From: Clostridiales bacterium | GTDB taxonomy: Bacteria; Bacillota; Clostridia; Lachnospirales; UBA12420 | Direction: 5' to 3' | Length of the DNA stretch: 64,000 nt | Assembly (NCBI GenBank): GCA_003452395.1 | Contig: DMOI01000045.1 | Location: forward strand, 3,727 to 67,726 | Part shown: positions 1,587 through 63,150 of the stretch, piece by piece | Numbering within the stretch: the first letter of the stretch is position 1 | How the letters are laid out: every line of letters begins with the position of its first letter | Made by a program: the position numbers and the translations under genes | Notes under the pieces: generated by a model | Told to the model about the DNA's origin: nothing | The model's database searches: none | Seen by the model: only the letters and a program-made list of their open reading frames with translations

Positions 1587-4241
1587 TTAATCCTCAACTT
1601 TATTTTTCTCTATATTTCTCACAAATATCTTCACTATCTCAACTATCGGTATAATTGCAAATGAAGCTAATAATACAATTGACCATTGTTCTAAGTTTAA
1701 TGGCACAACTTTAAATATTTTTGCTATAGGTGGAACAACAACTACTATAACTTGTAAAAAAGCAGTTATGAGTATAGCCCATATCAAATACATATTGCTA
1801 AATATACCTATTTCAAATATTGATTTTTTATTTGATCTCACATTAATTGAATGTGTAAGTTGTATTAATCCTAAAGTTATAAATGTCATTGTCATTGCAA
1901 CTTCATGATTATATAATTTATTACCTATATAATATACAGTTAAAGTAATTAGTCCTTTGAATATACCTTGATAAATTATATTAAATCCTACACCATTCGA
2001 CCAAAAACTGCTATCTGACTTTCTTGGTTTTTGCTTCATTACATCTTTATCTGATTTTTCTACTCCAAGTGCTAAAGCAGGTAAACTATCTGTAACTAAG
2101 TTTATCCATAATATGTGTATTGGAAATAGTACTACCCAGTTTAGCATTGTAGCTAAAAATAAAGTTACTACTTCTCCTAGATTAGAAGACAGTAAAAATT
2201 GAATAGTTTTTGTTAAATTACTATATATTTTTCTTCCTTCTTTTACAGCATAAACGATTGTTGCAAAGTTATCATCTGCAAGTACCATGTTTGATACGCT
2301 TTTTGAAACATCAGTACCTGTTATACCCATACCTACACCTATATCTGCTGTTTTAAGAGCTGGTGCATCATTTACACCATCACCTGTCATTGCTACTATC
2401 TTGCCATTTTTTTGCCATGTTTCTACTATTCTAACTTTATGTTCAGGTGAAACCCTTGCATAAACTGAATATTTTGTCACATTCTTTGTAAAGTCTTCAT
2501 CAGAAATTTTATCAAGTTCTGCTCCTGTTATAGCTTCATTTTCTTCTTTTATTATGCCTAGTTCTTTTGCAATAGCGACTGCTGTATCCTTGTGGTCACC
2601 AGTTATCATTATAGCTCTTATGCCCGCAGACTTACACATACGGATAGCTTCTTTTGCCTCTTCTCGCGGTGGATCTATCATACCAACTAATCCAACAAAA
2701 ACCAAGTCATTTTCTACTTTCATAGAAGTCATATCTTTCGGCATAACTTCTACTTTATTATAAGCAAATGCCAAAACTCTAAGTGCCTTGCTTGCCATCA
2801 GTCTGTTTGATGAACTTATTTCATTTAAAATTTCTTCTGATAAATCTTTAATTTCACCATTTATTAAAATCTTTGTACATCTTTCTAGTAATACATCTGG
2901 TGCACCTTTTGTCATTATTTTAAAATTACCTTCTACATCATGAATTGTAGTCATGAGCTTTCTGTCTGAATCAAAAGGTATTTCGTCTACTCTTTTTAAG
3001 TTATTATCTAATTCATTCTTACTAAAACCTTTTTCGTGTGCAAAGCTTACTAATGCAGTTTCTGTAGGATCTCCCAATAGTTTTATACTATTTTCTTCAG
3101 AATTTACAACCTTTGAATCATTACACAATGTCATTACATGTATAAATTCCCTTACATTTTCATGATTACCTTCTACATCCTTTGCCTCAAACACTTGACG
3201 GTTTATATAAACTTCCTTAACTGTCATTTTATTTTGAGTTAATGTTCCAGTTTTATCAGAACATATTATTTCTGTACTCCCTAGTGTCTCAACAGCAGCT
3301 AATTTTCTTATAATAGCATTTTTCTTTGCCATCTTTTGAACGCCAATTGCGAGAACTATAGTAATAACAGCAGGAAGTCCTTCCGGAATAGCTGCAACTG
3401 CTAAGCTTACTGATGTTAAAAACATTTCAAAAGTATCGCGACCATTCATTATGCCTACAACAAATATTACTACGGCTATTATAAGTATTGCTACTGATAA
3501 TAGCTTTCCCATTTTGTCTAGATTCATTTGTAGTGGTGTCTGATTATCCCCTGTATCAGAAATTTTCTTTGCTATCTTACCAACCTCAGTATTCATACCC
3601 GTTCCAGTAACTAAACCGATACCTCTACCATACGTTACTATGCTACCTGAGTATGCCATGTTTATCCTGTCTCCAATAACAACATCTGCATTTTCTAATG
3701 TAACAACACTTTTTTCAACTGGTACAGACTCCCCTGTCAAAGCCGATTCATCTATCTTTAAGTTCGCAGTTTCGATTATCCTCATGTCTGCAGGTATAAA
3801 ATCCCCTGCTTCTACTAAAACTATATCTCCAAAAGCCAGATTTTCTGTATCTATTCTTACCACTTCACCATTTCTTTTTACTTTAACCTGTGGAGATGAC
3901 ATCTTTTTAAGAGCTTCTAATGCCTTTTCTGCTTTACTTTCTTGTACTAGCCCAAGTATTGCATTTATTATAACAACTGCAAGTATTATACCCATATCTG
4001 TTAACTCACCTAATGCACCAGAAATTACCCCCGCAACTATAAGTACTATAACCATAAAATCTTTAAATTGATCTATAAATTTACCAAGTAAAGTTTTTTT
4101 CTTTCCTTCATCAAGCTCATTTTTACCAAACTCTATAATCCTACTTTCAGCTTCAGTTTGAGCTAATCCATTAGAACTCGAACCCGTTTCTACAAAAATA
4201 TCTTCTATATTCATTACATGATAAGCATTATTTTTTTTCAT
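1587..4241 (-). CDS. P-type ATPase, type IIA (calcium-translocating, SERCA/YloB-like)
   Basis: DKTGTLT phosphorylation motif, PEGLP in TM4 (not CPC), TGDGVNDAP hinge, about 10 TM segments. Start moved to the third Met, which has AAGGAGG 6 nt upstream. Confidence 0.85.
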   Translation of the reverse strand: MKKNNAYHVMNIEDIFVETGSSSNGLAQTEAESRIIEFGKNELDEGKKKTLLGKFIDQFKDFMVIVLIVAGVISGALGELTDMGIILAVVIINAILGLVQESKAEKALEALKKMSSPQVKVKRNGEVVRIDTENLAFGDIVLVEAGDFIPADMRIIETANLKIDESALTGESVPVEKSVVTLENADVVIGDRINMAYSGSIVTYGRGIGLVTGTGMNTEVGKIAKKISDTGDNQTPLQMNLDKMGKLLSVAILIIAVVIFVVGIMNGRDTFEMFLTSVSLAVAAIPEGLPAVITIVLAIGVQKMAKKNAIIRKLAAVETLGSTEIICSDKTGTLTQNKMTVKEVYINRQVFEAKDVEGNHENVREFIHVMTLCNDSKVVNSEENSIKLLGDPTETALVSFAHEKGFSKNELDNNLKRVDEIPFDSDRKLMTTIHDVEGNFKIMTKGAPDVLLERCTKILINGEIKDLSEEILNEISSSNRLMASKALRVLAFAYNKVEVMPKDMTSMKVENDLVFVGLVGMIDPPREEAKEAIRMCKSAGIRAIMITGDHKDTAVAIAKELGIIKEENEAITGAELDKISDEDFTKNVTKYSVYARVSPEHKVRIVETWQKNGKIVAMTGDGVNDAPALKTADIGVGMGITGTDVSKSVSNMVLADDNFATIVYAVKEGRKIYSNLTKTIQFLLSSNLGEVVTLFLATMLNWVVLFPIHILWINLVTDSLPALALGVEKSDKDVMKQKPRKSDSSFWSNGVGFNIIYQGIFKGLITLTVYYIGNKLYNHEVAMTMTFITLGLIQLTHSINVRSNKKSIFEIGIFSNMYLIWAILITAFLQVIVVVVPPIAKIFKVVPLNLEQWSIVLLASFAIIPIVEIVKIFVRNIEKNKVED

Positions 4242-4272
4242 ATTCATCCTCCTTGTGATATCCCCACCTGCT

Positions 4273-4379
4273 CTGTCATTGCGACATCCTAATACTTAGT
4301 TTGTGTATTTTGCAAACTTAGTTATAGGGGTACTAGTATAGTGAGAGGTTTTTTCGACGAAGCAATCTCATCCTTTAAA
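4273..4379. repeat. family A palindromic element, left arm only, carrying a 58-bp nested insert
   Basis: CTGTCATTGCGA[insert]GAGAGGTTTTTTCGACGAAGCAATCTCATCC. Nearly identical to 59851-59947. Confidence 0.85.
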
Positions 4380-5256
4380 TTATCTCAACATCTCCAAATA
4401 CATCGCCCGATATATTTGTCCTCATATTTTCAATCTCAAATTTCATTACTCCATATCCTACCCCAAATGGTCCTTCATATGACAAAAGCTTACCTTTTAT
4501 ATCATTTCCATTTATAGCACCTAATATTATATAGCAAGATTTCAAACCATATTGGGAAACATTTTGAATAATAGAACTGTCTAAATTAAAAATCTCTACT
4601 TCGTTCCCTTCTTCTAAAAGACTAATAAGCTTCTTGTCAAATTTTTCCCCATCTTCATGATAATTATATTGTCCCTCATCACTTAAACAATGTGAAAAGT
4701 CTCCACTCGCAATCAAGACTACATTACTTGGTGAATCATTTATTGCCTTCCTTATAATCATACCAAACTTATATAAATCAAGCTTTGATAAAAGTCCATA
4801 AGTTATGTTTACCACTTTATAATCTTTATATTTTTTATTTATAAAATACAGTGGAACCATACTTCCGTAATCAAGTTCAACACCTACTCCATATACTTTA
4901 GCAGAATTCTTGCCTAATTTTATTGTTGATATTTTATTTTGTATTGCATATTCTGCAACCTTCTCAGTTAAAACTTTATCAATCTTACATTCTATTCCTA
5001 TTTGCTCATTACCAAACTCATCAAAGTTTCCATAAAGAACATCATCAATTGATATCGCTATCGTATCTCCAGAAAGAGATGCATGCGGTGTTACTATTAT
5101 TATAGTATCAGGTACTTTATGTGCTACATCTGACGCAACTTCATAACAAGCATTAAAAGTATTCTTTACATTTTTTATTTGTTCCTCACCTATTTCAGGT
5201 AATAAAATAGGTGCTTGAGGCATTAAATAACAACCCTTAAGTTCTCCCATAAACAC
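4375..5256 (-). CDS. class III extradiol dioxygenase subunit B-like (LigB/Memo superfamily) protein
   Basis: 293 aa, family-level resemblance only (VTPHASLSGD and GPFGVGYGV segments). Start uncertain: GTG at 5256 or ATG at 5223. Confidence 0.45.
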   Translation of the reverse strand: MFMGELKGCYLMPQAPILLPEIGEEQIKNVKNTFNACYEVASDVAHKVPDTIIIVTPHASLSGDTIAISIDDVLYGNFDEFGNEQIGIECKIDKVLTEKVAEYAIQNKISTIKLGKNSAKVYGVGVELDYGSMVPLYFINKKYKDYKVVNITYGLLSKLDLYKFGMIIRKAINDSPSNVVLIASGDFSHCLSDEGQYNYHEDGEKFDKKLISLLEEGNEVEIFNLDSSIIQNVSQYGLKSCYIILGAINGNDIKGKLLSYEGPFGVGYGVMKFEIENMRTNISGDVFGDVEII

Positions 5257-5420
5257 ACATCCATTCTAAGCAATATAGTAAATATTCACTCTGCCTTCTT
5301 ACTAAATTATAACATATGATTAAAAAACATACAAGAAAAATTATATTTTAATGTATAATAACGTTAATATTTCAAAAAATATAATAATACTAATAAAAAT
5401 AATAAAACATGGAGGTACTT

Positions 5421-5819
5421 ATGGACAGGGAAGAAAGAAAAAATGCTAATAGATTAGATACACTTGAAAATATCTTAGAAAAGCACACAAGAACTGAAAG
5501 ACATCTAGAGCAGCATAGTGACATTGCGAATCCGGATCAAATTAAACATTCAAAAGAGATTCAAGGTGAGAGAGAAAATGAGATTAAGACTATAGAAAAT
5601 AAAATTATTTTTGGAGATACTTCTAAGGACAATGATGAATTAGGCAACGTTAAGAAAAACTTTGAATTTACGAAAGGTTACCTTATGGAGAATGCGAAGG
5701 AAATGGATGATTTTACTTTAGAGAAAACTATTGAGAAACAGCAAAACAGAACTAAACATATGGAAAATTTTGAAAGAGGACAAGAAAATGATGCTGAAAA
5801 CAAAAATGAGCAAAATTAA
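5421..5819 (+). CDS. charged spore-protein-like protein (resembles Tlp-type small acid-soluble spore protein)
   Basis: Highly charged protein. N-terminal DREERKNANRLDTLENILEKHTRTERHLE resembles the Tlp pattern. The ATG at 5421 follows GGAGGT, and the track start at 5409 is the RBS itself. Confidence 0.4.
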   Translation: MDREERKNANRLDTLENILEKHTRTERHLEQHSDIANPDQIKHSKEIQGERENEIKTIENKIIFGDTSKDNDELGNVKKNFEFTKGYLMENAKEMDDFTLEKTIEKQQNRTKHMENFERGQENDAENKNEQN

Positions 5820-5835
5820 TTGCTCATTTTTGTTT
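5806..5835. terminator. bidirectional terminator shared by convergent genes
   Basis: ATGAGCAA-N6-TTGCTCAT with flanking A and T runs. The stem overlaps both stop codons. Confidence 0.6.
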
Positions 5836-6673
5836 TCAAGTTTAATGATGCCTCATATACTTGATTTTTTGAAAAATCATGTTCATTTACTACCTTTTTT
5901 ATAGCTTCCTTCATTGTACAATCATCTCTCATTATTTTATCTACTAACAATGCCTCTATGGATATTTTAGCTTCACCTGTATTTTCATCCTTGACCTCTT
6001 GATTTTGAAGTATTACAACATACTCACCTTTTTCTATATTTTCATCATTTTTAATTTTCTGTAAAACTTCCTTAATATCTCCTCTTATTACCCTTTCATG
6101 CAGCTTTGTCAAATCCGAGCAAATGCATATAGCTGAGTTTGGAAATGATTCAGCCAATTTTTCAACTAATTTTACTACCCTTCGTGGCGACTCATATATA
6201 ACTGAGATTTTAACATTTGAATTACTTATTTCAGTTATCTTTTCCTTTAGCTTATTATCCCTGTCTAAGAAACCATAAAATGCAAATTTATCAATCTCAA
6301 ATCCGGATATTGATAATGCATCTATTACAGCCGATGGTCCTGGTATGCCTATTACCTCTATTTGATTACTATGTGCAAAAGCGACAATCTCATAGCCTGG
6401 GTCTGATATACACGGAGTGCCTGCATCGGATACTAGACACACAACTAGATCTTCAGTTTTTATCAGCTCTACTATCTGCTCTGCCTTCCATTTTTCATTA
6501 AACTTATGATATGATTCCATCTTCTTTTTTATATTAAAGTAATTTAGTAATTTTATTGTATGCCTTGTATCCTCGGCAAGTATTAAGTCACACTCATTCA
6601 AAACATCTAAAGTTCTTTTAGATACGTCTCCTAAATTCCCTATTGGGGTTGCTACTATATACAGTTTTGACAT
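5816..6673 (-). CDS. rsmI: 16S rRNA (cytidine1402-2'-O)-methyltransferase
   Basis: N-terminus LYIVATPIGNLGDVSKRTLDVL...LAEDTRHT is typical RsmI. Confidence 0.9.
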   Translation of the reverse strand: MSKLYIVATPIGNLGDVSKRTLDVLNECDLILAEDTRHTIKLLNYFNIKKKMESYHKFNEKWKAEQIVELIKTEDLVVCLVSDAGTPCISDPGYEIVAFAHSNQIEVIGIPGPSAVIDALSISGFEIDKFAFYGFLDRDNKLKEKITEISNSNVKISVIYESPRRVVKLVEKLAESFPNSAICICSDLTKLHERVIRGDIKEVLQKIKNDENIEKGEYVVILQNQEVKDENTGEAKISIEALLVDKIMRDDCTMKEAIKKVVNEHDFSKNQVYEASLNLKTKMSN

Positions 6674-6713: not shown

Positions 6714-7340
6714 TCACACAAGTATCTTTCCACAATGCTCCTCCAAAAAGCACTCTCCACATTTTGGTTTTTGACCCTTACACATTGTTCTACCGAGTGC
6801 CATAATTTGGCTATTGTACCTTGCCCAGTTTTCTTTTGGCAACACTTTCATTAGGTCAAACTCTATTTTAGTAGGGTCTTTCTCTTTTGTAAGACCTAAT
6901 CTGTAGCTTACTCTCTTAACATGCGTGTCTACAACTATGCTTGGTTGCTTAAATATATGTGTTAGTATTACATTCGCTGTTTTTCTGCCCACTCCAGCAA
7001 GTTTTGTTAGAGTTTCTATATCCATAGGCATATTTTTAGAATAATCTGTTATAAGTTGACCACATGATCTTTTTATATTTTGTGCCTTATTTCTATAAAA
7101 TCCTGTTTGAAATACATCTTGCTCTAATTCTGCTATATCACACTCTGCAAAATCTTCTATCTTGTTATACTTTATAAAAAGCTTCTCTGTCACTTTATTT
7201 ACTCTTTCATCTGTACATTGTGCAGCAAGTATTGTTGCAACCATAAGCTCATAATCTTTAGTGTAATTTAGATAGCATATAGCTTCTTTACCATATTTAT
7301 AATCAAGTAGCTTTAATATTTGATTTATTGTTTCTTCCAT
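6714..7340 (-). CDS. nth: endonuclease III
   Basis: HhH-GPD region LAGVGRKTANV and a C-terminal 4Fe-4S Cys cluster CKGQKPKCGECFLEEHC. Start at the Met preceded by GGAGGTGA. Confidence 0.9.
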   Translation of the reverse strand: MEETINQILKLLDYKYGKEAICYLNYTKDYELMVATILAAQCTDERVNKVTEKLFIKYNKIEDFAECDIAELEQDVFQTGFYRNKAQNIKRSCGQLITDYSKNMPMDIETLTKLAGVGRKTANVILTHIFKQPSIVVDTHVKRVSYRLGLTKEKDPTKIEFDLMKVLPKENWARYNSQIMALGRTMCKGQKPKCGECFLEEHCGKILV

Positions 7341-16829: not shown

Positions 16830-16850
16830 TAGTTTACCCCTCTCAATATA

Positions 16851-16907
16851 GTTGAAAGTTAAAAGTTGAAAAGATTTTTTATTTTCAGTTTTCAATTCTC
16901 AATTTTC
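16851..16907. repeat. family B heptamer-periodic hairpin
   Basis: GTTGAAA GTTAAAA GTTGAAA ... TTTTCAG TTTTCAA TTCTCAA TTTTC. Confidence 0.8.
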
Positions 16908-16928
16908 CATTTTTATAATGCATGAATA

Positions 16929-19150: not shown

Positions 19151-19187
19151 CTGTCATTACGAGGAGAGTCTACAGGTGCAGTTCTTT
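19151..19187. repeat. family A fragment
   Basis: CTGTCATTACGAGGAGAGTCTACAGGTGCAGTTC. Its tail matches the 30631-30650 end of another copy. Confidence 0.6.
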
Positions 19188-19193
19188 CTTAAG

Positions 19194-19242
19194 TTTTTCA
19201 ACTCTCAACTCTCAACTCTCAACTCACAACTCTCAACTTTCC
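19194..19242. repeat. family B single arm (about 7 heptamers)
   Basis: TTTTTCA (ACTCTCA)x3 ACTCACA ACTCTCA ACTTTCC. The unit count is taken from the ORF-track translation [15 protein letters not shown]. The ytfJ stop codon lies inside the tract. Confidence 0.8.
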
Positions 19243-30464: not shown

Positions 30465-30495
30465 ACATATGTCCCCCTTTTTTATCATCACCTCC

Positions 30496-30638
30496 CAGAC
30501 TTGTCATTGCGAGGAGGTCCTTTCGACGTGGCAATCTCATCTTTAAAATTATTTCGCTATAGAAAGTATGTTTGTTTCATACGTTACTTTCTTTAAAGAT
30601 AAGATTGCTTCGTCGTTCCTTCTCGCAATGACAGTCTG
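30496..30638. repeat. family A palindromic element (complete) between spoIIGA and sigE
   Basis: Arms TTGTCATTGCGAGGAGGTCCTTTCGACGTGGCAATCTCATCTTTAAA and TTTAAAGATAAGATTGCTTCGTCGTTCCTTCTCGCAATGACAG. Confidence 0.85.
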
Positions 30639-31613: not shown

Positions 31614-31717
31614 TTTTTTATTTTATCCTATACAAAAATATATATTACCTCAAGTAAACTTACAAATTTGTCAGATAGTCTCCTCATCAGGCAACCGACG
31701 AGGTATTCTTTATCTAT

Positions 31718-31774
31718 CGTAGTGGTCGAGCTTGTCTCTGCTTCCTTTACGTCGAGACAAGCTCGACCACTACG
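31718..31774. other. perfect 21-bp GC-balanced hairpin of unknown function
   Basis: CGTAGTGGTCGAGCTTGTCTC, a 15-nt loop, then GAGACAAGCTCGACCACTACG. Confidence 0.8.
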
Positions 31775-31880
31775 TTACATAGCACGCCGCAAGCGGACAG
31801 GGAATTAAACCCTGAAAGATTAAAATATATTAAAAAAGCAGCTCCCTCACACTAGTTAGTACTAAAAATAAAGCTCCTCC

Positions 31881-31914
31881 AAAATAAAATTGCCCATCTA
31901 GGGCAATTTTATTT
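31881..31914 (-). terminator. terminator of the pilin-like gene 32038-33378
   Basis: Perfect 14-bp stem AAATAAAATTGCCC / GGGCAATTTTATTT with a 5-6 nt loop. Confidence 0.7.
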
Positions 31915-31940
31915 GAAGTCCGTTGCACTCTTCGAGTATA

Positions 31941-31973
31941 GTTTAACTAAGCTTTGAAAATACCAAAGCTAAG
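31941..31973 (-). repeat. conserved 3'-flank hairpin motif, copy 1
   Basis: On the minus strand CTTAGCTTTGGTATTTTCAAAGCTTAGTTAAAC. About 27 of 33 nt are shared with copy 2. Confidence 0.7.
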
Positions 31974-32037
31974 TTTCCACTTATCGCGTACGACACTAAT
32001 TCCGCGGCTCTTCTCTTCCGATATTTTTCCATCCTTT

Positions 32038-33378
32038 TTATTCCCACGTTATCGTATATGCATCCCCCGCACTAGCTCCGCTCGCTCCATCTAGTGTCAT
32101 ACCCGACGGACTTAAAAACAAAGCGGGCCGAACTCCGTTGTTACCGATATAGACGTAGTTGCAGTTCACCTCGCCACTCGCGAACACGTAGCGGACGTAG
32201 TACGAATTAAGCGCATAAGAGTCCCTTAGCCAGTAATACCCATACGCCCCTGTATTTAATCCTACATCTGTATAGCCTCCTGCTGTACTTTGCGTTACTG
32301 CTTCACTCGTTGGATATGCTTTTGTCCATGCTACTCCATCCCCTAGTGCCCCATTACTATATACATAGTCATTTAATTCCTTTATTCCTAGTAAAAATAC
32401 ACTTTCTGTCGTGTCTTTATAGTTTGCACTTACATAGTTTTCTACTGCTGCACTTGCATTTGTTGCTGTATATGTATGACTTGCTGTTCCTCCTGTTTTT
32501 GCGGCTGTTGCTGCATCTGTATTTGCTAGTATTGTTTTATGGGTTACTGGCATTATTTTACTTCTTTCTACTCCGTTAAAGTTTCCATCTGCCAAAAATC
32601 CTTTTTCTGCATCATATGGGTTGAAGCTACTATATACTCTTGCTGCGGTTGGCGAAAAGTATCCTAGCCAATCTACTAATCCAGCTCCTGCACTACTGTT
32701 TAGCCATGCTTTTAGGTTGCTTTTATCCCAGTAGTTACTTCCGTATGTTCCTCTATCTGCATCTCCCCCTGCTCCTGTTATCAGGTTTTCTCCTGTTGCG
32801 TCAAATGGTTTTATGCTTATTATTTTATCACTAAATAGCATGAGGTCTCCCTCGTGTAGTCCACTTCCTGGATTCGCTGCTAGGTATGCTGCGTCTACTT
32901 TGTTTATTACTCTCCATACGATTGGTTGACTTAGATATGTCCCGAATTTTAGGTAGTTTCCTACTGGCACATCTGCTACTACTGGTGGCTCTGGTTCTCC
33001 TCCACTTGCTACTCCTGTTACTTCTACTAGTGGCTGATTTACTGTTGCTATTCCTGTTACTGACGAGACAACTACTTTATACTCTTTTTCTGGATCTGTT
33101 GGATATATCGGATTTACGGGTAGCTCTTTTATATATCCTCCCGCTATCATTTCTGGTATACAGTCTGTATCATCTACTATACTATCTTGTGCTAATAGGT
33201 AGCTCTGTGCCTGTTGTTGTAGCATTCTCACATTTGCATTGTGTGCTATCTGCTTTGCTGTTTCGCTCTTATTCATGAATATTGGTATTGCTATTGTTGC
33301 TAGTGCTGCTAGTATTACCAGTACTGCTAATAATTCTAATAAAGTGAACCCTTTTTTGTTTTTTCTTTCAACTTTCAA
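32038..33378 (-). CDS. type IV prepilin-like N-terminus fused to a DUF1566/DUF6273-like (lectin-fold-like) domain
   Basis: KKG|FTLLELLAVLVILAALATIAIPIF class III signal motif. C-terminal YYWLRDS...GVRPALF pattern. GC clearly above its neighbours. TTG start lies inside a heptamer repeat. Confidence 0.75.
   Translation of the reverse strand: MKVERKNKKGFTLLELLAVLVILAALATIAIPIFMNKSETAKQIAHNANVRMLQQQAQSYLLAQDSIVDDTDCIPEMIAGGYIKELPVNPIYPTDPEKEYKVVVSSVTGIATVNQPLVEVTGVASGGEPEPPVVADVPVGNYLKFGTYLSQPIVWRVINKVDAAYLAANPGSGLHEGDLMLFSDKIISIKPFDATGENLITGAGGDADRGTYGSNYWDKSNLKAWLNSSAGAGLVDWLGYFSPTAARVYSSFNPYDAEKGFLADGNFNGVERSKIMPVTHKTILANTDAATAAKTGGTASHTYTATNASAAVENYVSANYKDTTESVFLLGIKELNDYVYSNGALGDGVAWTKAYPTSEAVTQSTAGGYTDVGLNTGAYGYYWLRDSYALNSYYVRYVFASGEVNCNYVYIGNNGVRPALFLSPSGMTLDGASGASAGDAYTITWE
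32119..32232 (-). other. candidate DGR-type variable-region-like segment (adenine-poor NNY codons)
   Basis: 38 codons from TGG CTA AGG to GCT TTG. By hand count 23 of 114 nt are A and only 2 codons end in A. AAC/TAC/TAT/TGC/ATC codons are interleaved with adenine-free GTC CGC, GTG TTC GCG and GTT CGG CCC GCT TTG. Confidence 0.4.
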
Positions 33379-42070: not shown

Positions 42071-42185
42071 CTGTCATTGCGAGAAACGTTTTTTGTGACG
42101 AAGCAATCTCATCTTTTAAGTATTAGAGAGATTAATAAAATAGGAAAAGATGAGATTGCTTCGTCATTCCTCCTCGCAATGACAG
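42071..42185. repeat. family A palindromic element (complete)
   Basis: Arms CTGTCATTGCGAGAAACG...GACGAAGCAATCTCATC and GATGAGATTGCTTCGTC...CTCGCAATGACAG. Confidence 0.85.
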
Positions 42186-42853: not shown

Positions 42854-42935
42854 GAAAATTGAAAATTGAAAATTGAAAATTGAAAGTTAAATACTATATC
42901 TTATAACTTTCAACTCTCAACTTTCAACTTTCAAC
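42854..42935. repeat. family B heptamer-periodic hairpin inside the thrS T-box leader
   Basis: (GAAAATT)x4 GAAAGTT, a 17-nt loop, then ACTTTCA ACTCTCA ACTTTCA ACTTTCA AC. Confidence 0.8.
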
Positions 42936-42960
42936 TAAAATAAGGGTGGAACCACGAAAA

Positions 42961-51285: not shown

Positions 51286-51323
51286 ATAAATGCTCCTTAA
51301 ATCCATTATAACATCTCACCATA

Positions 51324-51441
51324 CCTGTCATTGCGAGGAGGTTCTTTCGACGTGGCAATCTCATCTTTTAAATTATTCTATTGTGTAAGTATTTCCCTTT
51401 AAAGATGAGATTGCTTCGTCGTTCCTCCTCGCAATGACAGG
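51324..51441. repeat. family A palindromic element (complete) between tsaB and rimI
   Basis: About 45-bp arms, CCTGTCATTGCGAGGAGGTTCTTTCGACGTGGCAATCTCATCTTTTA and its near-complement. Confidence 0.9.
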
Positions 51442-53496: not shown

Positions 53497-54888
53497 CTAT
53501 TTATTAATGGTATATGGATTATCTATTGTACCTTCTCCCCCAGTTATATATACAGACTCATCAATATTTATAGCTGGTCTTGCGGGAAAGTTAGTAAATG
53601 CATCTGCTTGACTTATTATTCCACTTAAATAATAAACATAGTAAATTTTTGTAGTAGAATCATTTGGTTGTGTAATTAACCACCAGTCTGCATTTATATC
53701 AGTAGTGGTAATTAGTTCACCCAATCTAAGTAATCCAACATTTGCCGAGATAGATTCAACCTTATTTTGCTCATATTTAACTTGCTCTATCGACTTTTCT
53801 ACTTTTTTATCGGGATTATTACCGACTTTGTCATATTGTGATGATTTTTTTGGATCTTTTGCAGGAGCCATATATCCAATATCTCTTATATACCAATCTG
53901 ATAATACAATCCAGTGTTTATTTTCTAGATTTTCATAAAATACTGTATTTAGAAAATTAGCTATATTATATTTATCTTTCGGATTATACGAAGGTATATT
54001 TCTTGTATCAAATCCTTGAAACCAGATAGCACTATTGCATACAATTTTTGTAGTAAGATTAGTATTTACATCAACAATTCTCCACGAAAACCCTGAATAT
54101 GTAATGTACTCCCCTGAGTGTCTCGTATTGAGTTTTTCCCCAGTTTTTGCAATAGACTCTTGTTTTAACTTATAAGGCGAAGCTTTAGTTCCTTCTCCCG
54201 ATTTTAAAGAAATAGTATTAGAAATTTTTATTACAGGAGTTACCCCATATTTACTATCAATTGGTGCTACATTAAGTTTCCCATCGTTTGATATACAATA
54301 TGCTTGATTAAGAGCATACGAAGGAGCAGACATTGTCCAATTGTATTTCGATATATTTAATATGCCTTTATACTTTATATACTCATCTTTAGTAAGCATT
54401 CCTATGTTATCCGTCACCGAATTATTTGTACCGTCCTCATTTTCCCTCCAAATAAATGTTTGGGGAATCAAAAGTGCTTTATTGTTTAATGTTTTATAGT
54501 AGGTTTGGTTTAACCAAACTCTTAAATAACTCAGATCATACTCATTATTATCTTCATAGTTATAATTTAGTATGGCAATAGGGTCTGCTGAAATAAGTAC
54601 AATACCATCATCTGCTTTATTTAAAATTATCCAATTATTTCCACTAAACCAGATGTAAGAACCCACTTCTTTGTCTTTTATATATATACTATTTTTATTT
54701 TCAACTTCAACTTGGTTTTGCGTTGTTCCTGTTTGATTTGTCTTATTTCCTTCAATTTCATCTACATTTTCAATATTTGTTGCAGGATTTTTCATAAAAT
54801 TTAGAACTAGATAACTTATTGCAATTAATACAATAACTAAAATACAACCCAAAACAATCAATTTTTTAGATTTATCACTTGTCTTCAT
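53497..54888 (-). CDS. membrane-anchored protein with two DUF6273/DUF1566-like domains
   Basis: N-terminal signal anchor. Two modules each have a W-rich beta pattern. The second ends DWWLITQPN...FPARPAINI and GGEGTIDNPYTI. Normal AT-rich codon usage. Confidence 0.65.
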   Translation of the reverse strand: MKTSDKSKKLIVLGCILVIVLIAISYLVLNFMKNPATNIENVDEIEGNKTNQTGTTQNQVEVENKNSIYIKDKEVGSYIWFSGNNWIILNKADDGIVLISADPIAILNYNYEDNNEYDLSYLRVWLNQTYYKTLNNKALLIPQTFIWRENEDGTNNSVTDNIGMLTKDEYIKYKGILNISKYNWTMSAPSYALNQAYCISNDGKLNVAPIDSKYGVTPVIKISNTISLKSGEGTKASPYKLKQESIAKTGEKLNTRHSGEYITYSGFSWRIVDVNTNLTTKIVCNSAIWFQGFDTRNIPSYNPKDKYNIANFLNTVFYENLENKHWIVLSDWYIRDIGYMAPAKDPKKSSQYDKVGNNPDKKVEKSIEQVKYEQNKVESISANVGLLRLGELITTTDINADWWLITQPNDSTTKIYYVYYLSGIISQADAFTNFPARPAINIDESVYITGGEGTIDNPYTINK

Positions 54889-57990: not shown

Positions 57991-58025
57991 GTTCAATCTA
58001 CAACTTTGAAACTACCAAAGCTTAG
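57991..58025 (-). repeat. conserved 3'-flank hairpin motif, copy 2
   Basis: On the minus strand CTAAGCTTTGGTAGTTTCAAAGTTGTAGATTGAAC, starting 8 nt after the stop codon. Confidence 0.7.
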
Positions 58026-58033
58026 ACTCACTT

Positions 58034-59611
58034 TTAGTCAAGCCCACACAGAACGGGACGGAAAGAAACATTACTATCAGCAGTGCCATTGATGTAGTGA
58101 CCCGCGAACGCCCCCGCACTAGTACCATTAGAGTAGTTACCACCGCGAAGGAAAAACGGATTCGCGCTATATGGAAAATATTGGTAATCTCCGTATCCTT
58201 TAAAGGTATTTGTGTTTGTGCTATTATCGCCACATTTCATTATTTCATGTAATGCTAGTCCTGTCGTATTTCCTTCTGTTTGAGTATAGTTTTCTTGATA
58301 TGTTGGTGTTCCATCTTCTGTTACTGCTAATACATCTGCTACACCGCTATTACTTCCATAGGCTGTTACTAGGCTTCCACCATTTGTAGTTAGGATTCCA
58401 TTTCCGTTTGCCACGTAGCTTGCTATGTACTCCCAAGCACCACCACTCATGTCATAGATTCCGTACACGTTTCCGGTTGTGCTTGCTTTTTGGCATTGTG
58501 CATTTTTATAGTCACTGATTGTTCCTACATCTGTTCCTGCACTTGCAGAGCTTCCTGCGCTTCCTGTGACGTATCCACTGTCATTGTTTATCCATATCTC
58601 TACGCCATCTCTTACTGCTTCTGAAAGATATGTTACCGCTCCCCAGTCTCTATTTCTCATCATCAGGGTGTCTACTTCACTGCTGTTAAGTCCATAGCTG
58701 CCTGTTTTCATTGCAATACATTTGTTATATATATTATTTACTGTTATACTTCTCCAGCTTGCTACGCTTGGTACTACTTTTATGTTTGTACTTGCATTTT
58801 GACTTGCTTCAAATTTGGCTACCCAGATGCCCGTGAGCTGTGTTGCTCCATATGTAAAGGCTGGGTGCACAGTAAATCCTGCTGTTGATGTGGTACTCGT
58901 TCCTTCTAGATATTCTATTTCTATTTTATCGTCTGCTGCTGAATCTGTATTGTCTCCTGTTATCTTGTATGCATATCGTGGTATCCATACAAACATACTA
59001 TTATCTACATCTCCTAGTTGTACATTTGCCCATTTTTCACTTGTCGCATAACTTCCATTTTCTACGTCTCCTGCGTAGTTATACCATGCTACATCATCTG
59101 CTGTTGTTGTGACTACATTGTTGCTTCCATCCCATTTGATTGGTGTCATTCCTGTTAGTAGCTTCGGCTTGTTTACTCCCATCGCTACATTATATTCTGG
59201 GTCTGATGCTGGTGGCGTACCACCGCCTTGAGCGGTGTTGGTTACCTCTACTAGCCCTGGGCTTACTGTTACCTTACCGTCTGCTGCTACTGCTACGGTA
59301 AATGCTCCCGAACCATCCCCGCTTGCTATCGGATTTGTTGGTCTTTCCCTTAGATACCCTGTTGTTACCATAGTGTCTATGATATCTGCCTGTACTCCTG
59401 TATCTCCCTGCTCCCACAGGTATGCCTGTGCTTGCTTTTGCAAGAGTGCTACTGTTTCGTTATGGGCTATTTCTCTTGCTCTACCCCCGTTATTCGTAAA
59501 TATAGGTATCGCAATCGTCGCTAGTGCTGCAAGTATTACAAGCACTGCTAAAAGTTCAAGTAATGTAAACCCTTTTTTTGTATTTCTTTTCGTATCGTGC
59601 ATGTCTTTCAT
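58034..59611 (-). CDS. type IV prepilin-like N-terminus fused to an FGE-sulfatase/C-type-lectin-fold-like domain
   Basis: KKG|FTLLELLAVLVILAALATIAIPIF. C-terminal ...GIYDMSGGAWEY...RGGNYSNG...VSFRPV resembles the FGE-sulfatase fold. GGAGGT RBS. GC above its neighbours. Confidence 0.75.
   Translation of the reverse strand: MKDMHDTKRNTKKGFTLLELLAVLVILAALATIAIPIFTNNGGRAREIAHNETVALLQKQAQAYLWEQGDTGVQADIIDTMVTTGYLRERPTNPIASGDGSGAFTVAVAADGKVTVSPGLVEVTNTAQGGGTPPASDPEYNVAMGVNKPKLLTGMTPIKWDGSNNVVTTTADDVAWYNYAGDVENGSYATSEKWANVQLGDVDNSMFVWIPRYAYKITGDNTDSAADDKIEIEYLEGTSTTSTAGFTVHPAFTYGATQLTGIWVAKFEASQNASTNIKVVPSVASWRSITVNNIYNKCIAMKTGSYGLNSSEVDTLMMRNRDWGAVTYLSEAVRDGVEIWINNDSGYVTGSAGSSASAGTDVGTISDYKNAQCQKASTTGNVYGIYDMSGGAWEYIASYVANGNGILTTNGGSLVTAYGSNSGVADVLAVTEDGTPTYQENYTQTEGNTTGLALHEIMKCGDNSTNTNTFKGYGDYQYFPYSANPFFLRGGNYSNGTSAGAFAGHYINGTADSNVSFRPVLCGLD
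58037..58170 (-). other. candidate DGR-type variable-region-like segment (adenine-poor NNY codons)
   Basis: The last 38 codons have no A at third positions. By hand count 18 of 114 nt are A. Adenine-free scaffold codons (GCG GGG GCG TTC GCG; TTC CGT CCC GTT CTG TGT GGG CTT) are interleaved with AAC/TAC/AAT/CAC/ATC/AGT codons. Confidence 0.45.
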
Positions 59612-59727: not shown

Positions 59728-59774
59728 CCTATACCTATACCTATACCTATACCTATACCTATACCTATACCTAT
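59728..59774. repeat. hexanucleotide microsatellite (CCTATA)7 plus a partial unit
   Basis: Read directly and confirmed by the IPIPIP / GIGIGI translations in the ORF track. Lies 117-163 nt upstream of the 59611 start codon. Confidence 0.95.
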
Positions 59775-59850: not shown

Positions 59851-60024
59851 TGTCATTGCGACATCCTAATACTTAGTTTGTGTATTTTGCAAACTTAGTT
59901 ATAGGGGTACTAGTATAGTGAGAGGTTCTTTCGACGAAGCAATCCCTTGCTCCTTACGAAATACTAAAGTGAACTATTAATTTGTTCCATAAAACACGGG
60001 ATTGCTTCGTTCCTCGCAATGACA
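59851..60024. repeat. family A palindromic element with the same 58-bp nested insert in its left arm
   Basis: Left arm plus insert at 59851-59947, right arm GGGATTGCTTCGTTCCTCGCAATGACA at 59998-60024. Confidence 0.85.
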
Positions 60025-62930: not shown

Positions 62931-62952
62931 ATACAATTTACACCCCCTATAT

Positions 62953-63044
62953 AAGTTGAAAGTTGAGAGTTGAGAGTTGAAAGTTAGAAGTTGAAAAACT
63001 GTTTTATTTTTCACTTTCAACTTTCAATTTTCAATTTTCAACTT
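62953..63044. repeat. family B heptamer-periodic hairpin between efp and glgC
   Basis: AAGTTGAAAGTTGAGAGTTGAGAGTTGAAAGTTAGAAGTTGAAAA ... TTTTTCACTTTCAACTTTCAATTTTCAATTTTCAACTT. The stem is about 32 bp including G-U positions on the plus strand. Confidence 0.85.
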
Positions 63045-63150
63045 ATCATGTCATTCTCTTAGTTTACCATATTTTAAAATAAATACAATACCTTTTGGAA
63101 TTTTTTTCACAAAAAAATCACAAATTGTTTATCATGTGATTTTTTATTCT

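What the first reader, a model, noticed from the sequence alone, without database searches (positions are those of the whole stretch)
32119..32232. Second VR-like adenine-poor NNY segment in the paralogous pilin-fused gene
Coding strand: TGG CTA AGG GAC TCT TAT GCG CTT AAT TCG TAC TAC GTC CGC TAC GTG TTC GCG AGT GGC GAG GTG AAC TGC AAC TAC GTC TAT ATC GGT AAC AAC GGA GTT CGG CCC GCT TTG (WLRDSYALNSYYVRYVFASGEVNCNYVYIGNNGVRPAL).

By hand count 23 of 114 nt are A and only 2 of 38 codons end in A. Four AAC codons plus TAC, TAT, TGC and ATC alternate with adenine-free GTC CGC, GTG TTC GCG and GTT CGG CCC GCT TTG. The WLR...GVRPAL pattern resembles the DUF1566/DUF6273 type of lectin-fold end that DGRs also target.

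An internal control exists. The homologous domain in gene 53497-54888 (DWWLITQPN...ARPAINI) is written in ordinary AT-rich codons.

Caveat: NCG-rich codons (CCG TCG GCG ACG) continue for the 30 codons after this segment to the stop. Plain horizontal origin from a GC-richer donor therefore remains a real alternative.
Basis: partly seen in the sequence, partly recalled or inferred. Interest (0 to 1): 0.75.

Follow-up and report, generated by a model that had tools for sequence, protein, structure and literature searches.

The report
DGR variable region in pilin-lectin gene
The flagged adenine-poor stretch is the hypervariable tip-coding region of a pilus-anchored lectin-like protein, one of several genes a reverse-transcriptase mutagenesis system (a diversity-generating retroelement, DGR) elsewhere in the same genome rewrites or has rewritten; this is a known kind of system.

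Summary
Of 15,067 windows of 38 codons across 55 ORFs, only 30 have two or fewer A-ending codons, and all 30 lie in this gene or in gene 58034-59611.

The gene (32038-33378, minus strand) encodes a type IV prepilin N-terminus fused to a DUF6273 domain. Among five paralogues, 30 of 31 adenine-containing columns in an 87-nt core vary. Only 1 of 50 invariant columns holds an A (p=1e-15).

The cognate cassette lies on another contig of the same MAG (Clostridiales bacterium GWD2_32_59). Its order is MutS_I/Avd-like protein, a 98-nt template repeat (TR1), a DGR-type reverse transcriptase, then a pilin-DUF6273 target.

TR1 aligns without gaps to window 32123-32220 (81.6% identity). All 28 TR1 adenines sit at codon positions 1 or 2. 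Eleven of 28 A sites differ in this gene, against 7 of 70 non-A sites.

Sixty of 80 phage DUF6273 homologues carry TR/VR pairs at the same C-terminal position.

The caveat is the seven non-A mismatches: this copy may be an older or currently idle remote target. No evidence of ongoing diversification was obtained. It is a new member of a known kind.

The parts
32038..33378 (-). Target gene g1: 446-aa modular type IV pilin-like protein (prepilin N-terminus, linker, DUF6273 domain).
   Evidence: ORF. Pfam N_methyl 32.8 bits and DUF6273 52.4 bits. NCBIfam TIGR02532 prepilin domain 30.5 bits, above the 16.3 cutoff.
33286..33366 (-). Class III (prepilin) signal and N-terminal methylation motif, KKG|FTLLELLAVLVILAALATIAIPIF.
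   Evidence: Pfam N_methyl matches aa 5-31. The profile also hits solved type IV pilins.
32041..32979 (-). Globular DUF6273 domain (aa 134-446).
   Evidence: AF2 model with pLDDT 93.7 and pTM 0.93. Foldseek TM 0.80 to 9qa6 (IgA peptidase; the aligned part is its N-terminal DUF6273 domain). Matches to phage DUF6273 proteins at E 1e-20 to 1e-7.
32123..32220 (-). Variable region (VR): the 98 nt homologous to template repeat TR1.
   Evidence: Ungapped alignment to L113:4517-4614 at 81.6% identity. 11 of 28 TR adenine sites differ against 7 of 70 non-A sites, Fisher p=1.5e-3.
32138..32208 (-). Adenine-templated hypervariable core (codons matching TR1 AAT/AAC/ACG/GAT codons).
   Evidence: Across five paralogues, 30 of 31 A-containing columns vary and 49 of 50 invariant columns lack A (p=1.4e-15). 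There are 17 columns with 3 or more alleles, and transversions outnumber transitions.
32111..32136 (-). 3' boundary resembling an IMH. The G/C-rich 14-mer GGAGTTCGGCCCGC is shared with TR1. It is followed by TTTGTTTTTAAG, where TR1 reads CTTAAATAAACA.
   Evidence: Alignment A8. The same boundary is present in every paralogous target.
32038..32122 (-). Non-mutagenised tail coding LFLSPSGMTLDGASGASAGDAYTITWE plus the stop codon. It is GC- and CpG-rich and conserved among targets.
   Evidence: 22 invariant A columns. The first 86 nt after the VR are identical to those of the RT-adjacent target.
31881..32037 (-). Conserved 3' untranslated flank shared by the paralogous targets, ending in a terminator-like hairpin (31881-31913). 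It holds the right arm of a long-range inverted repeat (31983-31999 and 31916-31924) that pairs with 32092-32113.
   Evidence: Alignments A2 and A8. DNA fold z-score -4.8.
31925..31982 (-). 58-nt insertion carrying the hairpin AGCTTTGGTATTTTCAAAGCT. It is present in g1, P0008 and P0175 and absent from P0004, P0009 and P0003.
   Evidence: Alignments A2 and A8. A similar element directly follows the stop of gene 58034-59611.

Best explanation
Window 32123-32220 (minus strand) is the variable region of a diversity-generating retroelement (DGR) target gene.

The gene encodes a modular type IV pilin: a prepilin signal and pilin helix carrying a C-terminal DUF6273 ligand-binding domain. In phage relatives this domain is reported to be C-type-lectin-like.

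The DGR cassette sits on another contig of the same genome. Its order is a MutS_I/Avd-like accessory protein, the 98-nt template repeat TR1, a DGR-type reverse transcriptase, then a sister pilin-DUF6273 target.

Shown here:
- TR1 aligns without gaps to this segment.
- All 28 TR1 adenines are at codon positions 1 or 2.
- The paralogous VRs differ from TR1 and from each other almost only at those adenines.
- All targets, including this one, keep the same G/C-rich 3' boundary and the same 3' flank.

Inferred from the established DGR mechanism (Bordetella phage BPP-1 and relatives): TR RNA is reverse-transcribed with random misincorporation opposite adenines. The cDNA replaces the VR, directed by the IMH-like 3' boundary, and so rewrites about 14 surface codons of the binding domain.

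The adenine-poor NNY look follows from this design. Constant positions must avoid A, and templated adenines are partly replaced.

This copy is a remote (trans) target. Its 7 non-A mismatches cluster partly at sites that vary recurrently among targets (TR1 positions 50, 87, 93, 96). This suggests it was last written by an earlier or alternative TR version that had A at those sites. On that reading it is an older, less recently rewritten target than P0009 and P0004.
For: - Composition outlier confirmed.
- Adenine-specific variability among five paralogues: 30 of 31 A-containing columns vary, and only 1 of 50 invariant columns holds an A (p=1.4e-15). Variation is at codon positions 1 and 2 (15/29 each) against position 3 (7/29). 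There are 17 multi-allelic columns, and transversions outnumber transitions, the reverse of the gene body.
- Cassette found: Avd-like gene, TR1, RT and target in L113/L112. The RT has RVT_1 and the LPIGNMTSQ and YVDD motifs.
- The cis target P0180 is named A2Y22_05080 of Clostridiales bacterium GWD2_32_59, the MAG that also holds the window's contig.
- TR-VR mismatches, A sites versus non-A sites: cis target 16 vs 1, P0004 12 vs 1, P0008 19 vs 5, g1 11 vs 7 (p=1.5e-3).
- Outcome at A sites is G 37, T 25, C 8. This matches the published bias of about half A-to-G (PMC6642488).
- 60 of 80 phage DUF6273 homologues have A-biased TR/VR pairs with the VR at the same C-terminal position. The four top-ranked loci missing's A-biased list sit close to an end of the DNA held, where a TR about 2 kb upstream could not have been seen. 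The avd-TR-RT-target order was read in the two loci checked (L040, L056). The g1 VR is 72-74% identical to those phage TRs.
- DUF6273 is a documented DGR target whose VR lies at its C-terminus (PMC11792537, PMC10743442).
- The 86 nt after the VR are identical between g1 and the RT-adjacent target.
Against: - Seven of 18 TR1-VR mismatches in g1 are at non-A positions (7% of the 98 nt). Published pairs average about 1.5 non-A substitutions (PMC6642488), and the remote-target rule of PMC5758913 is 'only A-to-N, allowing minor exceptions'.
- No sign of ongoing diversification was found. The other cluster members that cover the g1 VR are identical to it (P0171, P0173). Paralogue VRs are identical across independent assemblies and samples.
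- The cassette is on a different contig of a MAG. Same-cell co-residence rests on binning, and on co-occurrence of paralogues P0004, P0008 and P0175 with the cassette in JGI metagenome 3300025011. The window's own contig was not retrieved from that metagenome.
- The Avd-like match is below the curated cutoffs (Pfam 34.2 against 40; NCBIfam 32.8 against 80).
- The hypothetical earlier or second TR was not found.
Confidence: 0.85

Rival explanations
1. Fossil VR. The segment descends by gene duplication or gene conversion from a paralogue that had been diversified by the DGR. This copy is no longer, or never was, a homing target, and now drifts by ordinary mutation.
For: g1 has 7 non-A mismatches to TR1, against 1 each for P0009 and P0004. 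The paralogues are mosaics of 45-100% identical blocks, and one database member (P0174) is a g1/P0003 chimera, so recombination among copies is frequent. No population heterogeneity was seen.
Against: g1 keeps the G/C-rich boundary and an identical 86-nt flank relative to the RT-adjacent target. Four of its 7 non-A mismatches fall at sites that vary recurrently, with several alleles, among targets (TR1 positions 50, 87, 93, 96). That is the behaviour of templated adenines in another TR version rather than of random drift. The reading frame is intact.
Confidence: 0.1
2. Plain compositional island. The 3' end of the gene and its downstream region were acquired from a GC-richer donor, and the adenine poverty only reflects donor codon usage, with no hypermutation.
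For: The GC-rich (~50%) and CpG-rich composition extends beyond the VR, through the tail and about 350 nt of non-coding DNA. The VR scaffold is 72-74% identical to TRs of GC-richer phages.
Against: This cannot explain why 30 of 31 A-containing columns vary while 49 of 50 invariant columns lack A. It also does not explain a matching TR next to an RT in the same genome. The RT gene itself is AT-rich like the host. A foreign origin of the module may well be true, but it complements the DGR explanation rather than replacing it.
Confidence: 0.02
3. Pilin antigenic variation by recombination, or by positive selection alone (Neisseria pilE/pilS style). The hypervariable block arises from shuffling among paralogous cassettes that share conserved 3' sequences.
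For: There are multiple dispersed pilin paralogues with a conserved 3' flank and mosaic bodies. The chimeric P0174 also fits.
Against: The copies are full-length genes with their own signal peptides, not silent cassettes. Variation in the block is nucleotide-specific (adenine columns, codon positions 1 and 2, multi-allelic), which recombination or selection does not produce. Each VR is unique, not a reassortment of shared segments.
Confidence: 0.03

Closest known systems
Phage DGRs that target DUF6273 proteins (Faecalibacterium prophages Lelie, CP11, Roos and Pioen; tentaclins of nd4/nd12-like phages)
   Same: The target domain family is the same, and the VR is at the same C-terminal position of DUF6273. 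The avd-TR-RT-target order is the same in the two phage loci read. The ~95-98-nt TR has AAC/AAT codons, and its scaffold is 72-74% identical to the g1 VR (PMC11792537, PMC10743442).
   Different: Here the element is cellular. The targets carry a type IV prepilin N-terminus instead of phage tail or Ig modules, and at least 5 targets are dispersed on different chromosomal contigs. The accessory protein has an added MutS_I domain.
Cellular DGRs with remote targets (Treponema denticola TvpA family; Legionella DGR with a MutS-like accessory gene) as surveyed in PMC5758913
   Same: One RT/TR serves several non-adjacent target genes. MutS-like accessory proteins accompany Avd. The targets are surface-exposed ligand-binding proteins.
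   Different: The Treponema and Legionella targets are lipoproteins with FGE-sulfatase- or DUF1566-type C-type lectin folds. Here the scaffold is DUF6273 on a type IV pilin, and MutS_I and Avd are fused in one ORF.
Bacteroides DGRs that diversify type V pilus tip adhesins (bioRxiv 10.1101/2024.11.15.621889)
   Same: The concept is the same: a DGR diversifies the adhesive subunit of a pilus.
   Different: The pilus system differs (type V against a type IV class III signal peptide), as do the phylum and the target fold family. That paper does not mention type IV pili.
Modular type IV pilins of Gram-positive bacteria (Streptococcus sanguinis PilB, PMC8179133)
   Same: A pilin module has a functional adhesive module grafted onto its C-terminus.
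   Different: Those pilins are not known to be hypermutated. Here the grafted module carries a DGR VR.

Membership tests
DGR variable region / target gene | The VR is an imperfect repeat of a template repeat (TR) elsewhere in the genome. | tested here: met
   TR1 (L113:4517-4614) aligns without gaps to window 32123-32220, 98 nt at 81.6% identity.
DGR variable region / target gene | TR-VR differences lie (almost) only at TR adenines. | tested here: inconclusive
   In g1, 11 of 28 A sites differ against 7 of 70 non-A sites (61% at A, Fisher p=1.5e-3). This is enriched but not exclusive. The feature is clearly met for the sister targets P0009 (16 vs 1) and P0004 (12 vs 1). The TR-independent test across paralogues is met: 30 of 31 A-containing columns vary.
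DGR variable region / target gene | A DGR-type reverse transcriptase is encoded next to the TR. | tested here: met
   A 406-aa ORF starts 180 nt after TR1. It has Pfam RVT_1 (E 1e-17) and the motifs LPIGNMTSQ and YVDD. Its placement in the DGR RT clade by phylogeny was not done.
DGR variable region / target gene | An Avd-type accessory protein is present. | tested here: inconclusive
   The ORF at L113:3822-4502 hits Pfam bAvd at 34.2 bits (cutoff 40) and NCBIfam DivGenRetAVD at 32.8 bits (cutoff 80). It also hits MutS_I at 52.3 bits. Position and size fit.
DGR variable region / target gene | The VR lies at the C-terminal end of the target ORF in a C-type-lectin-like (or Ig) ligand-binding fold. 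| tested here: met
   The VR covers aa 387-419 of 446, inside DUF6273. It is the same position as the VRs of 60 phage homologues. The C-type-lectin character of DUF6273 rests on the literature (PMC10743442). Foldseek gave only insignificant hits to C-type lectins.
DGR variable region / target gene | An IMH at the VR 3' end differs from IMH* in the TR. | tested here: met
   A shared G/C-rich 14-mer is followed by TTTGTTTTTAAG in all VRs and by CTTAAATAAACA in TR1. Its function in homing is not testable here.
DGR variable region / target gene | There is ongoing diversification (VR heterogeneity within a population). | tested here: inconclusive
   Cluster members P0171 and P0173 have the same VR as g1. 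Paralogue VRs are identical across assemblies. Consensus assemblies cannot show minority variants, and no reads were available.
Type IV pilin (class III signal peptide protein) | An N-terminal prepilin cleavage/methylation motif G|FxxxE followed by a hydrophobic helix. | tested here: met
   The sequence is KKG|FTLLELLAVLVILAALATIAIPIF. Pfam N_methyl scores 32.8 against a 21.2 cutoff, and TIGR02532 scores 30.5 against 16.3. A profile hits solved pilins. Processing and pilus assembly are not testable here.
Neisseria-type pilin antigenic variation | Silent, promoterless partial cassettes donate segments to one expression locus. | tested here: not met
   All copies examined are full-length ORFs with signal peptides, in unrelated chromosomal contexts. 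The variation is adenine-specific.

The most novel reading that the evidence does not exclude
This groundwater Clostridiales may keep a repertoire of at least 8 dispersed modular type IV pilins in two families: DUF6273-type like g1, and an FGE-sulfatase-like type like gene 58034-59611. Their ligand-binding tips would be programmed in trans by DGRs. That would make it a type IV pilus adhesin repertoire under retroelement-driven hypermutation. Its accessory protein fuses a MutS mismatch-binding domain to Avd. The TR itself appears to have lost adenines over time (positions 50, 84, 87, 93, 96), which would leave a datable series of older targets (g1, P0008, P0175) and fresher ones (P0009, P0004).
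Probability: 0.35. Interest if true: 0.6.

Novelty: new member of a known kind. Interest (0 to 1): 0.45.

Why it matters
The finding shows that a purely compositional cue can flag a remote DGR target even when the TR and RT lie outside the sequence in hand. The cue is a local loss of third-position adenine together with NNY codons.

Biologically it adds a cellular, multi-target DGR in a Clostridia-class MAG. This DGR diversifies the tip domain of type IV pilin fusions. Surveys list pilin-type DGR targets only as rare oddities (PMC11661182).

The set of paralogues has graded numbers of non-A mismatches. It offers a natural series for asking how remote targets are recruited, maintained and retired, and whether TRs evolve by silencing adenines.

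The MutS_I-Avd fusion bears on the open question of how mismatch recognition relates to retrohoming.

Tried and rejected
- **TR inside the window.** blastn with word size 7 and fuzzy pattern searches found only the VR itself.
- **RT inside the window and in the flanks of the paralogues fetched by then.** A YxDD/SQ motif scan found nothing.
- **Rfam.** No hit at gathering thresholds and no credible hit at E<=1.
- **Collection scans with GTCCGCNNCGTGTNCNNGNNTGGCNNGGTG** (GTDB representatives, JGI metagenomes, IMG/VR) and with an all-A version returned only VRs or chance GC-rich hits. The reason emerged later: I had fixed a T that all VRs share, where TR1 has A (AAC against TNC).
- **The metagenome scan was also incomplete.** It missed contigs L005 and L006, which do match the pattern. 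The negative scans therefore carried little weight.
- **Protein search with a peptide translated from my predicted TR.** Almost no candidates shared words with the query.
- **Protein search with a phage DGR RT.** It gave 6,323 hits, and none of the 120 listed was attributable to this organism.
- **Look-ups of P0002 and P0172.** Neither was on record.
- **First AF2 run, on 13 close paralogues.** It was unusable at pLDDT 37. The second run, on the domain alone with 40 diverse sequences, worked.
- **P0002/P0175 as a possible orthologue of g1.** It proved to be another paralogue at a different locus, upstream of spoIIAA-sigF.
- **The conserved 3' flank as part of the homing tract.** Rejected, because the tail has 22 invariant adenine columns.
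- **Hammerhead-like CTGATGAG in the g1-specific downstream element.** Considered, but Rfam gives no support.
Full report
**Observation**

It is a sharp local anomaly. The body of gene 32038-33378 (minus strand) has 50-76% A at third codon positions. The last ~75 codons fall to 5-16%, with GC3 up to 0.71 and up to 14 CpG per 114 nt.

I scanned 15,067 windows of 38 codons taken from 55 ORFs of the 64-kb window. Only 30 have two or fewer A-ending codons, and all 30 lie in this gene or in gene 58034-59611.

The GC-rich patch runs on past the stop codon to about 31680.

**The gene and its relatives**

The product is 446 aa long. It has a classical prepilin motif (KKG|FTLLE..., Pfam N_methyl) and a DUF6273 domain at aa 204-423.

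The window is a chromosomal stretch of a sporulating member of the Clostridia. The neighbouring genes include spoIIGA, sigE/sigG-type sigma factors and mutL.

The source is MAG GCA_001797235.1, Clostridiales bacterium GWD2_32_59, contig MGOV01000033.1.

A protein search found a small family in this MAG and its close relatives. In the protein alignment the block YGYYWLRDSYALNSYYVRYVFASGEVNCNYVYIGNNGVRPAL is hypervariable. The flanking sequence is nearly identical, including the tail FLSPSGMTLDGASGAS...TITWE.

The copies are full-length genes scattered in unrelated chromosomal contexts. Their bodies are mosaics of blocks 45-100% identical.

**Adenine-specific signature without a TR**

I aligned the DNA of five distinct copies. 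Three are from this population (g1, P0004, P0008) and two from the sister MAG GWD2_32_19.

The results for the 87-nt core (window 32116-32202) are:
- 37 columns vary.
- 30 of the 31 columns that contain an A in any copy vary.
- Only 1 of 50 invariant columns holds an A (Fisher p=1.4e-15).
- Variation sits at codon positions 1 and 2 (15 of 29 each), against 7 of 29 at position 3.
- 17 columns have three or more alleles.
- Transversions outnumber transitions (140 to 82), the reverse of the gene body (346 to 533).

The 78-nt tail has 22 invariant A columns, so it is not mutagenised.

This is the footprint of DGR mutagenesis. Recombination or positive selection alone would not be expected to produce it.

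**Finding the cassette**

The window holds no TR and no RT.

Pattern scans of three public collections returned only VRs. The reason became clear later: I had fixed a T that all VRs share at a site where the TR has A.

The last contig look-up, for paralogue P0009, gave the answer. On JGI contig Ga0209000_1000367 (L113), and identically in an ENA assembly (L112), lie four features in this order:
- a 226-aa protein with MutS_I and an Avd-like domain (3822-4502);
- a 98-nt template repeat, TR1 (4517-4614);
- a 406-aa reverse transcriptase (4794-6014) with RVT_1 and the motifs LPIGNMTSQ and YVDD;
- a pilin-DUF6273 gene whose VR is at 7030-7127.

The full-length product of that gene, P0180, is recorded as A2Y22_05080 of Clostridiales bacterium GWD2_32_59. 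That is the MAG that holds the window.

**TR1 against the VRs**

TR1 has 28 adenines: 13 at codon position 1, 15 at position 2 and none at position 3. It translates to SYAPNSYNVRNVNTDGTVNNNNAYNGNNGVRP.

Mismatches to TR1 at adenine sites and at non-adenine sites:

| Target | A-site mismatches (of 28) | Non-A mismatches (of 70) |
|---|---|---|
| P0009 (RT-adjacent, cis) | 16 | 1 |
| P0004 | 12 | 1 |
| P0008 | 19 | 5 |
| P0175 | 12 | 8 |
| g1 (window 32123-32220) | 11 | 7 |

For g1 the enrichment at A sites gives Fisher p=1.5e-3.

At TR-A sites the replacements are G 37, T 25 and C 8. This is close to the published bias of about half A-to-G (PMC6642488).

TR-VR homology starts at TCTTATGCG. It ends after a G/C-rich 14-mer. 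After that, every VR reads TTTGTTTTTAAG and TR1 reads CTTAAATAAACA, an IMH/IMH*-like arrangement.

The 86 nt that follow the VR are identical in g1 and in the RT-adjacent target.

**How to read the seven non-A mismatches**

Seven is well above the roughly 1.5 per pair seen in surveys. It would also fail the strict remote-target rule of PMC5758913.

Four of the seven fall at TR1 positions 50, 87, 93 and 96, where several other targets also differ. At positions 50, 87 and 93 they show more than one alternative base; at position 87, five of seven VRs carry A or T against the G of TR1. At position 96 all four differing targets carry C.

That is how templated adenines behave. I infer that g1, P0008 and P0175 were last written by an earlier or second TR version with A at those sites, and that P0009 and P0004 are fresher.

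This is inference; no such TR was found.

The alternative is that g1 is a fossil copy. I give that alternative about 10%.

**Independent support from phages**

A scan of IMG/VR for DUF6273 relatives returned 80 loci. Sixty of them have a TR/VR pair with A-biased mismatches. In these the VR sits at the same distance from the end of the domain. I read two loci in full (L040, L056); both show the avd-TR-RT-target order.

The g1 VR is 72-74% identical to those phage TRs. Stretches such as TCGTACAACGTCCGCAACGT match my adenine-restored reconstruction exactly.

The literature already places DGR VRs at the C-terminus of DUF6273, and describes the domain as C-type-lectin-like with the VR forming a beta-hairpin (PMC11792537, PMC10743442).

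**Structure**

An AF2 model of aa 134-446 is confident (pLDDT 93.7).

It matches the DUF6273 N-terminal domain of the Thomasclavelia ramosa IgA peptidase (9qa6) with TM 0.80. It also matches phage DUF6273 proteins.

The VR residues (model positions 254-286) span the strands at 261-265 and 271-275. This agrees with the beta-hairpin reported for phage relatives.

**Composition explained**

Constant positions of a TR/VR cannot be A, and all templated adenines are at codon positions 1 and 2. A VR is therefore bound to have almost no third-position A and many NNC or NNT codons.

The GC- and CpG-rich tail and 3' flank are not explained this way. They belong to a conserved 3' module shared by all targets. 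This module may hold recognition elements, for example the long-range inverted repeat 32092-32113 / 31983-31999 + 31916-31924, or it may reflect a foreign origin of the module.

Foreign origin complements the DGR explanation and does not replace it.

**What is not shown**

- Current activity. VRs are identical across assemblies, and no reads were available.
- Physical linkage of the cassette to the window. They lie on different contigs of a MAG.
- Avd identity. The hits are below the curated cutoffs.
- Processing of the pilin and its assembly into a pilus.

**Comparison and novelty**

DGRs, remote targets, MutS-like accessory genes and DUF6273 targets are all known (PMC11792537).

Pilin-type domains among DGR targets are mentioned only as rare cases (PMC11661182). 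The well-studied pilus case is the type V pilus of Bacteroides.

This is therefore a new member of a known kind. It has three unusual features:
- the targets are type IV pilin fusions;
- at least five targets are dispersed on different contigs;
- MutS_I and an Avd-like domain are fused in one accessory protein.

Interest is moderate.

Noticed in passing
window 58034-59611 (minus strand), VR-like part about 58037-58170: This is a second pilin-fused gene (N_methyl). Its C-terminal sequence, FLRGGNYSNGTSAGAFAGHYINGTADSNVSFRPVL, resembles an FGE-sulfatase-type VR. It shows the same collapse of third-position A and is hypervariable among homologues P0040, P0041 and P0043. TR1 does not match it, and no TR for it was found in any fetched locus, so it needs a different TR.
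   Followed up: partly
L113:3822-4502: The DGR accessory ORF fuses a MutS domain I (52 bits) to an Avd-like domain. Separate MutS-like and Avd genes are known in DGRs (PMC5758913). I did not find a fusion described in the papers read.
   Followed up: partly
window 31655-31830 (minus strand): A GC-rich, strongly structured 176-nt element lies downstream of g1 only. It has a perfect 21-bp hairpin plus two smaller ones (RNA fold z-score -7.5). It is absent from all paralogous loci, has no Rfam hit and has no match in IMG/VR. Its function is unknown.
   Followed up: partly
window 31925-31982; also 58004-58030, 4294-4324 and 59871-59901: A 58-nt insertion with the hairpin AGCTTTGGTATTTTCAAAGCT interrupts the conserved 3' flank in g1, P0008 and P0175 but not in P0004, P0009 or P0003. 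Related hairpins lie directly after the stop of gene 58034-59611 and in two other intergenic sites. It may be a small mobile or terminator-like element.
   Followed up: partly
window 4349-4378, 30495-30634, 42090-42185, 51319-51440, 59851-59955: A family of palindromic intergenic repeats (GTCATTGCGAGGAG...CGACGAAGCAATCTCATC...) has 3 to 5 copies in the window. They look like REP or MITE elements.
   Followed up: no
window 19187-19238, 42855-42946, 62944-63046, 16850-16913: Arrays of 7-nt repeats (AACTCTC / TTGAAAG types) form inverted pairs in several intergenic regions.
   Followed up: no
window about 59728-59772: A hexanucleotide microsatellite (GGTATA/GTATAG, about 8 units) sits in the upstream region of gene 58034-59611.
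   Followed up: no
proteins P0174 and P0001; window 32038-33378: Database member P0174 has the N-terminal half of g1 and the C-terminal half of P0003, VR included. It is either a real recombinant between paralogues or an assembly chimera. The gene bodies of the paralogues are mosaics in general.
   Followed up: partly
L002:17923-18014: In the sister genome, the C-terminal end of a 1222-aa FecR/Big_12 protein shows a weak match (65% over 92 nt) to the VR region of gene 58034-59611. That VR type may also sit on non-pilin scaffolds.
   Followed up: no
L004:11813-12505 and L029:2239-3120: A PDDEXK_2 (Rpn/YhgA-like nuclease) gene lies immediately downstream of two different pilin-fused paralogues (P0008 and P0047). 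This may be coincidence or a link to their recombination.
   Followed up: no
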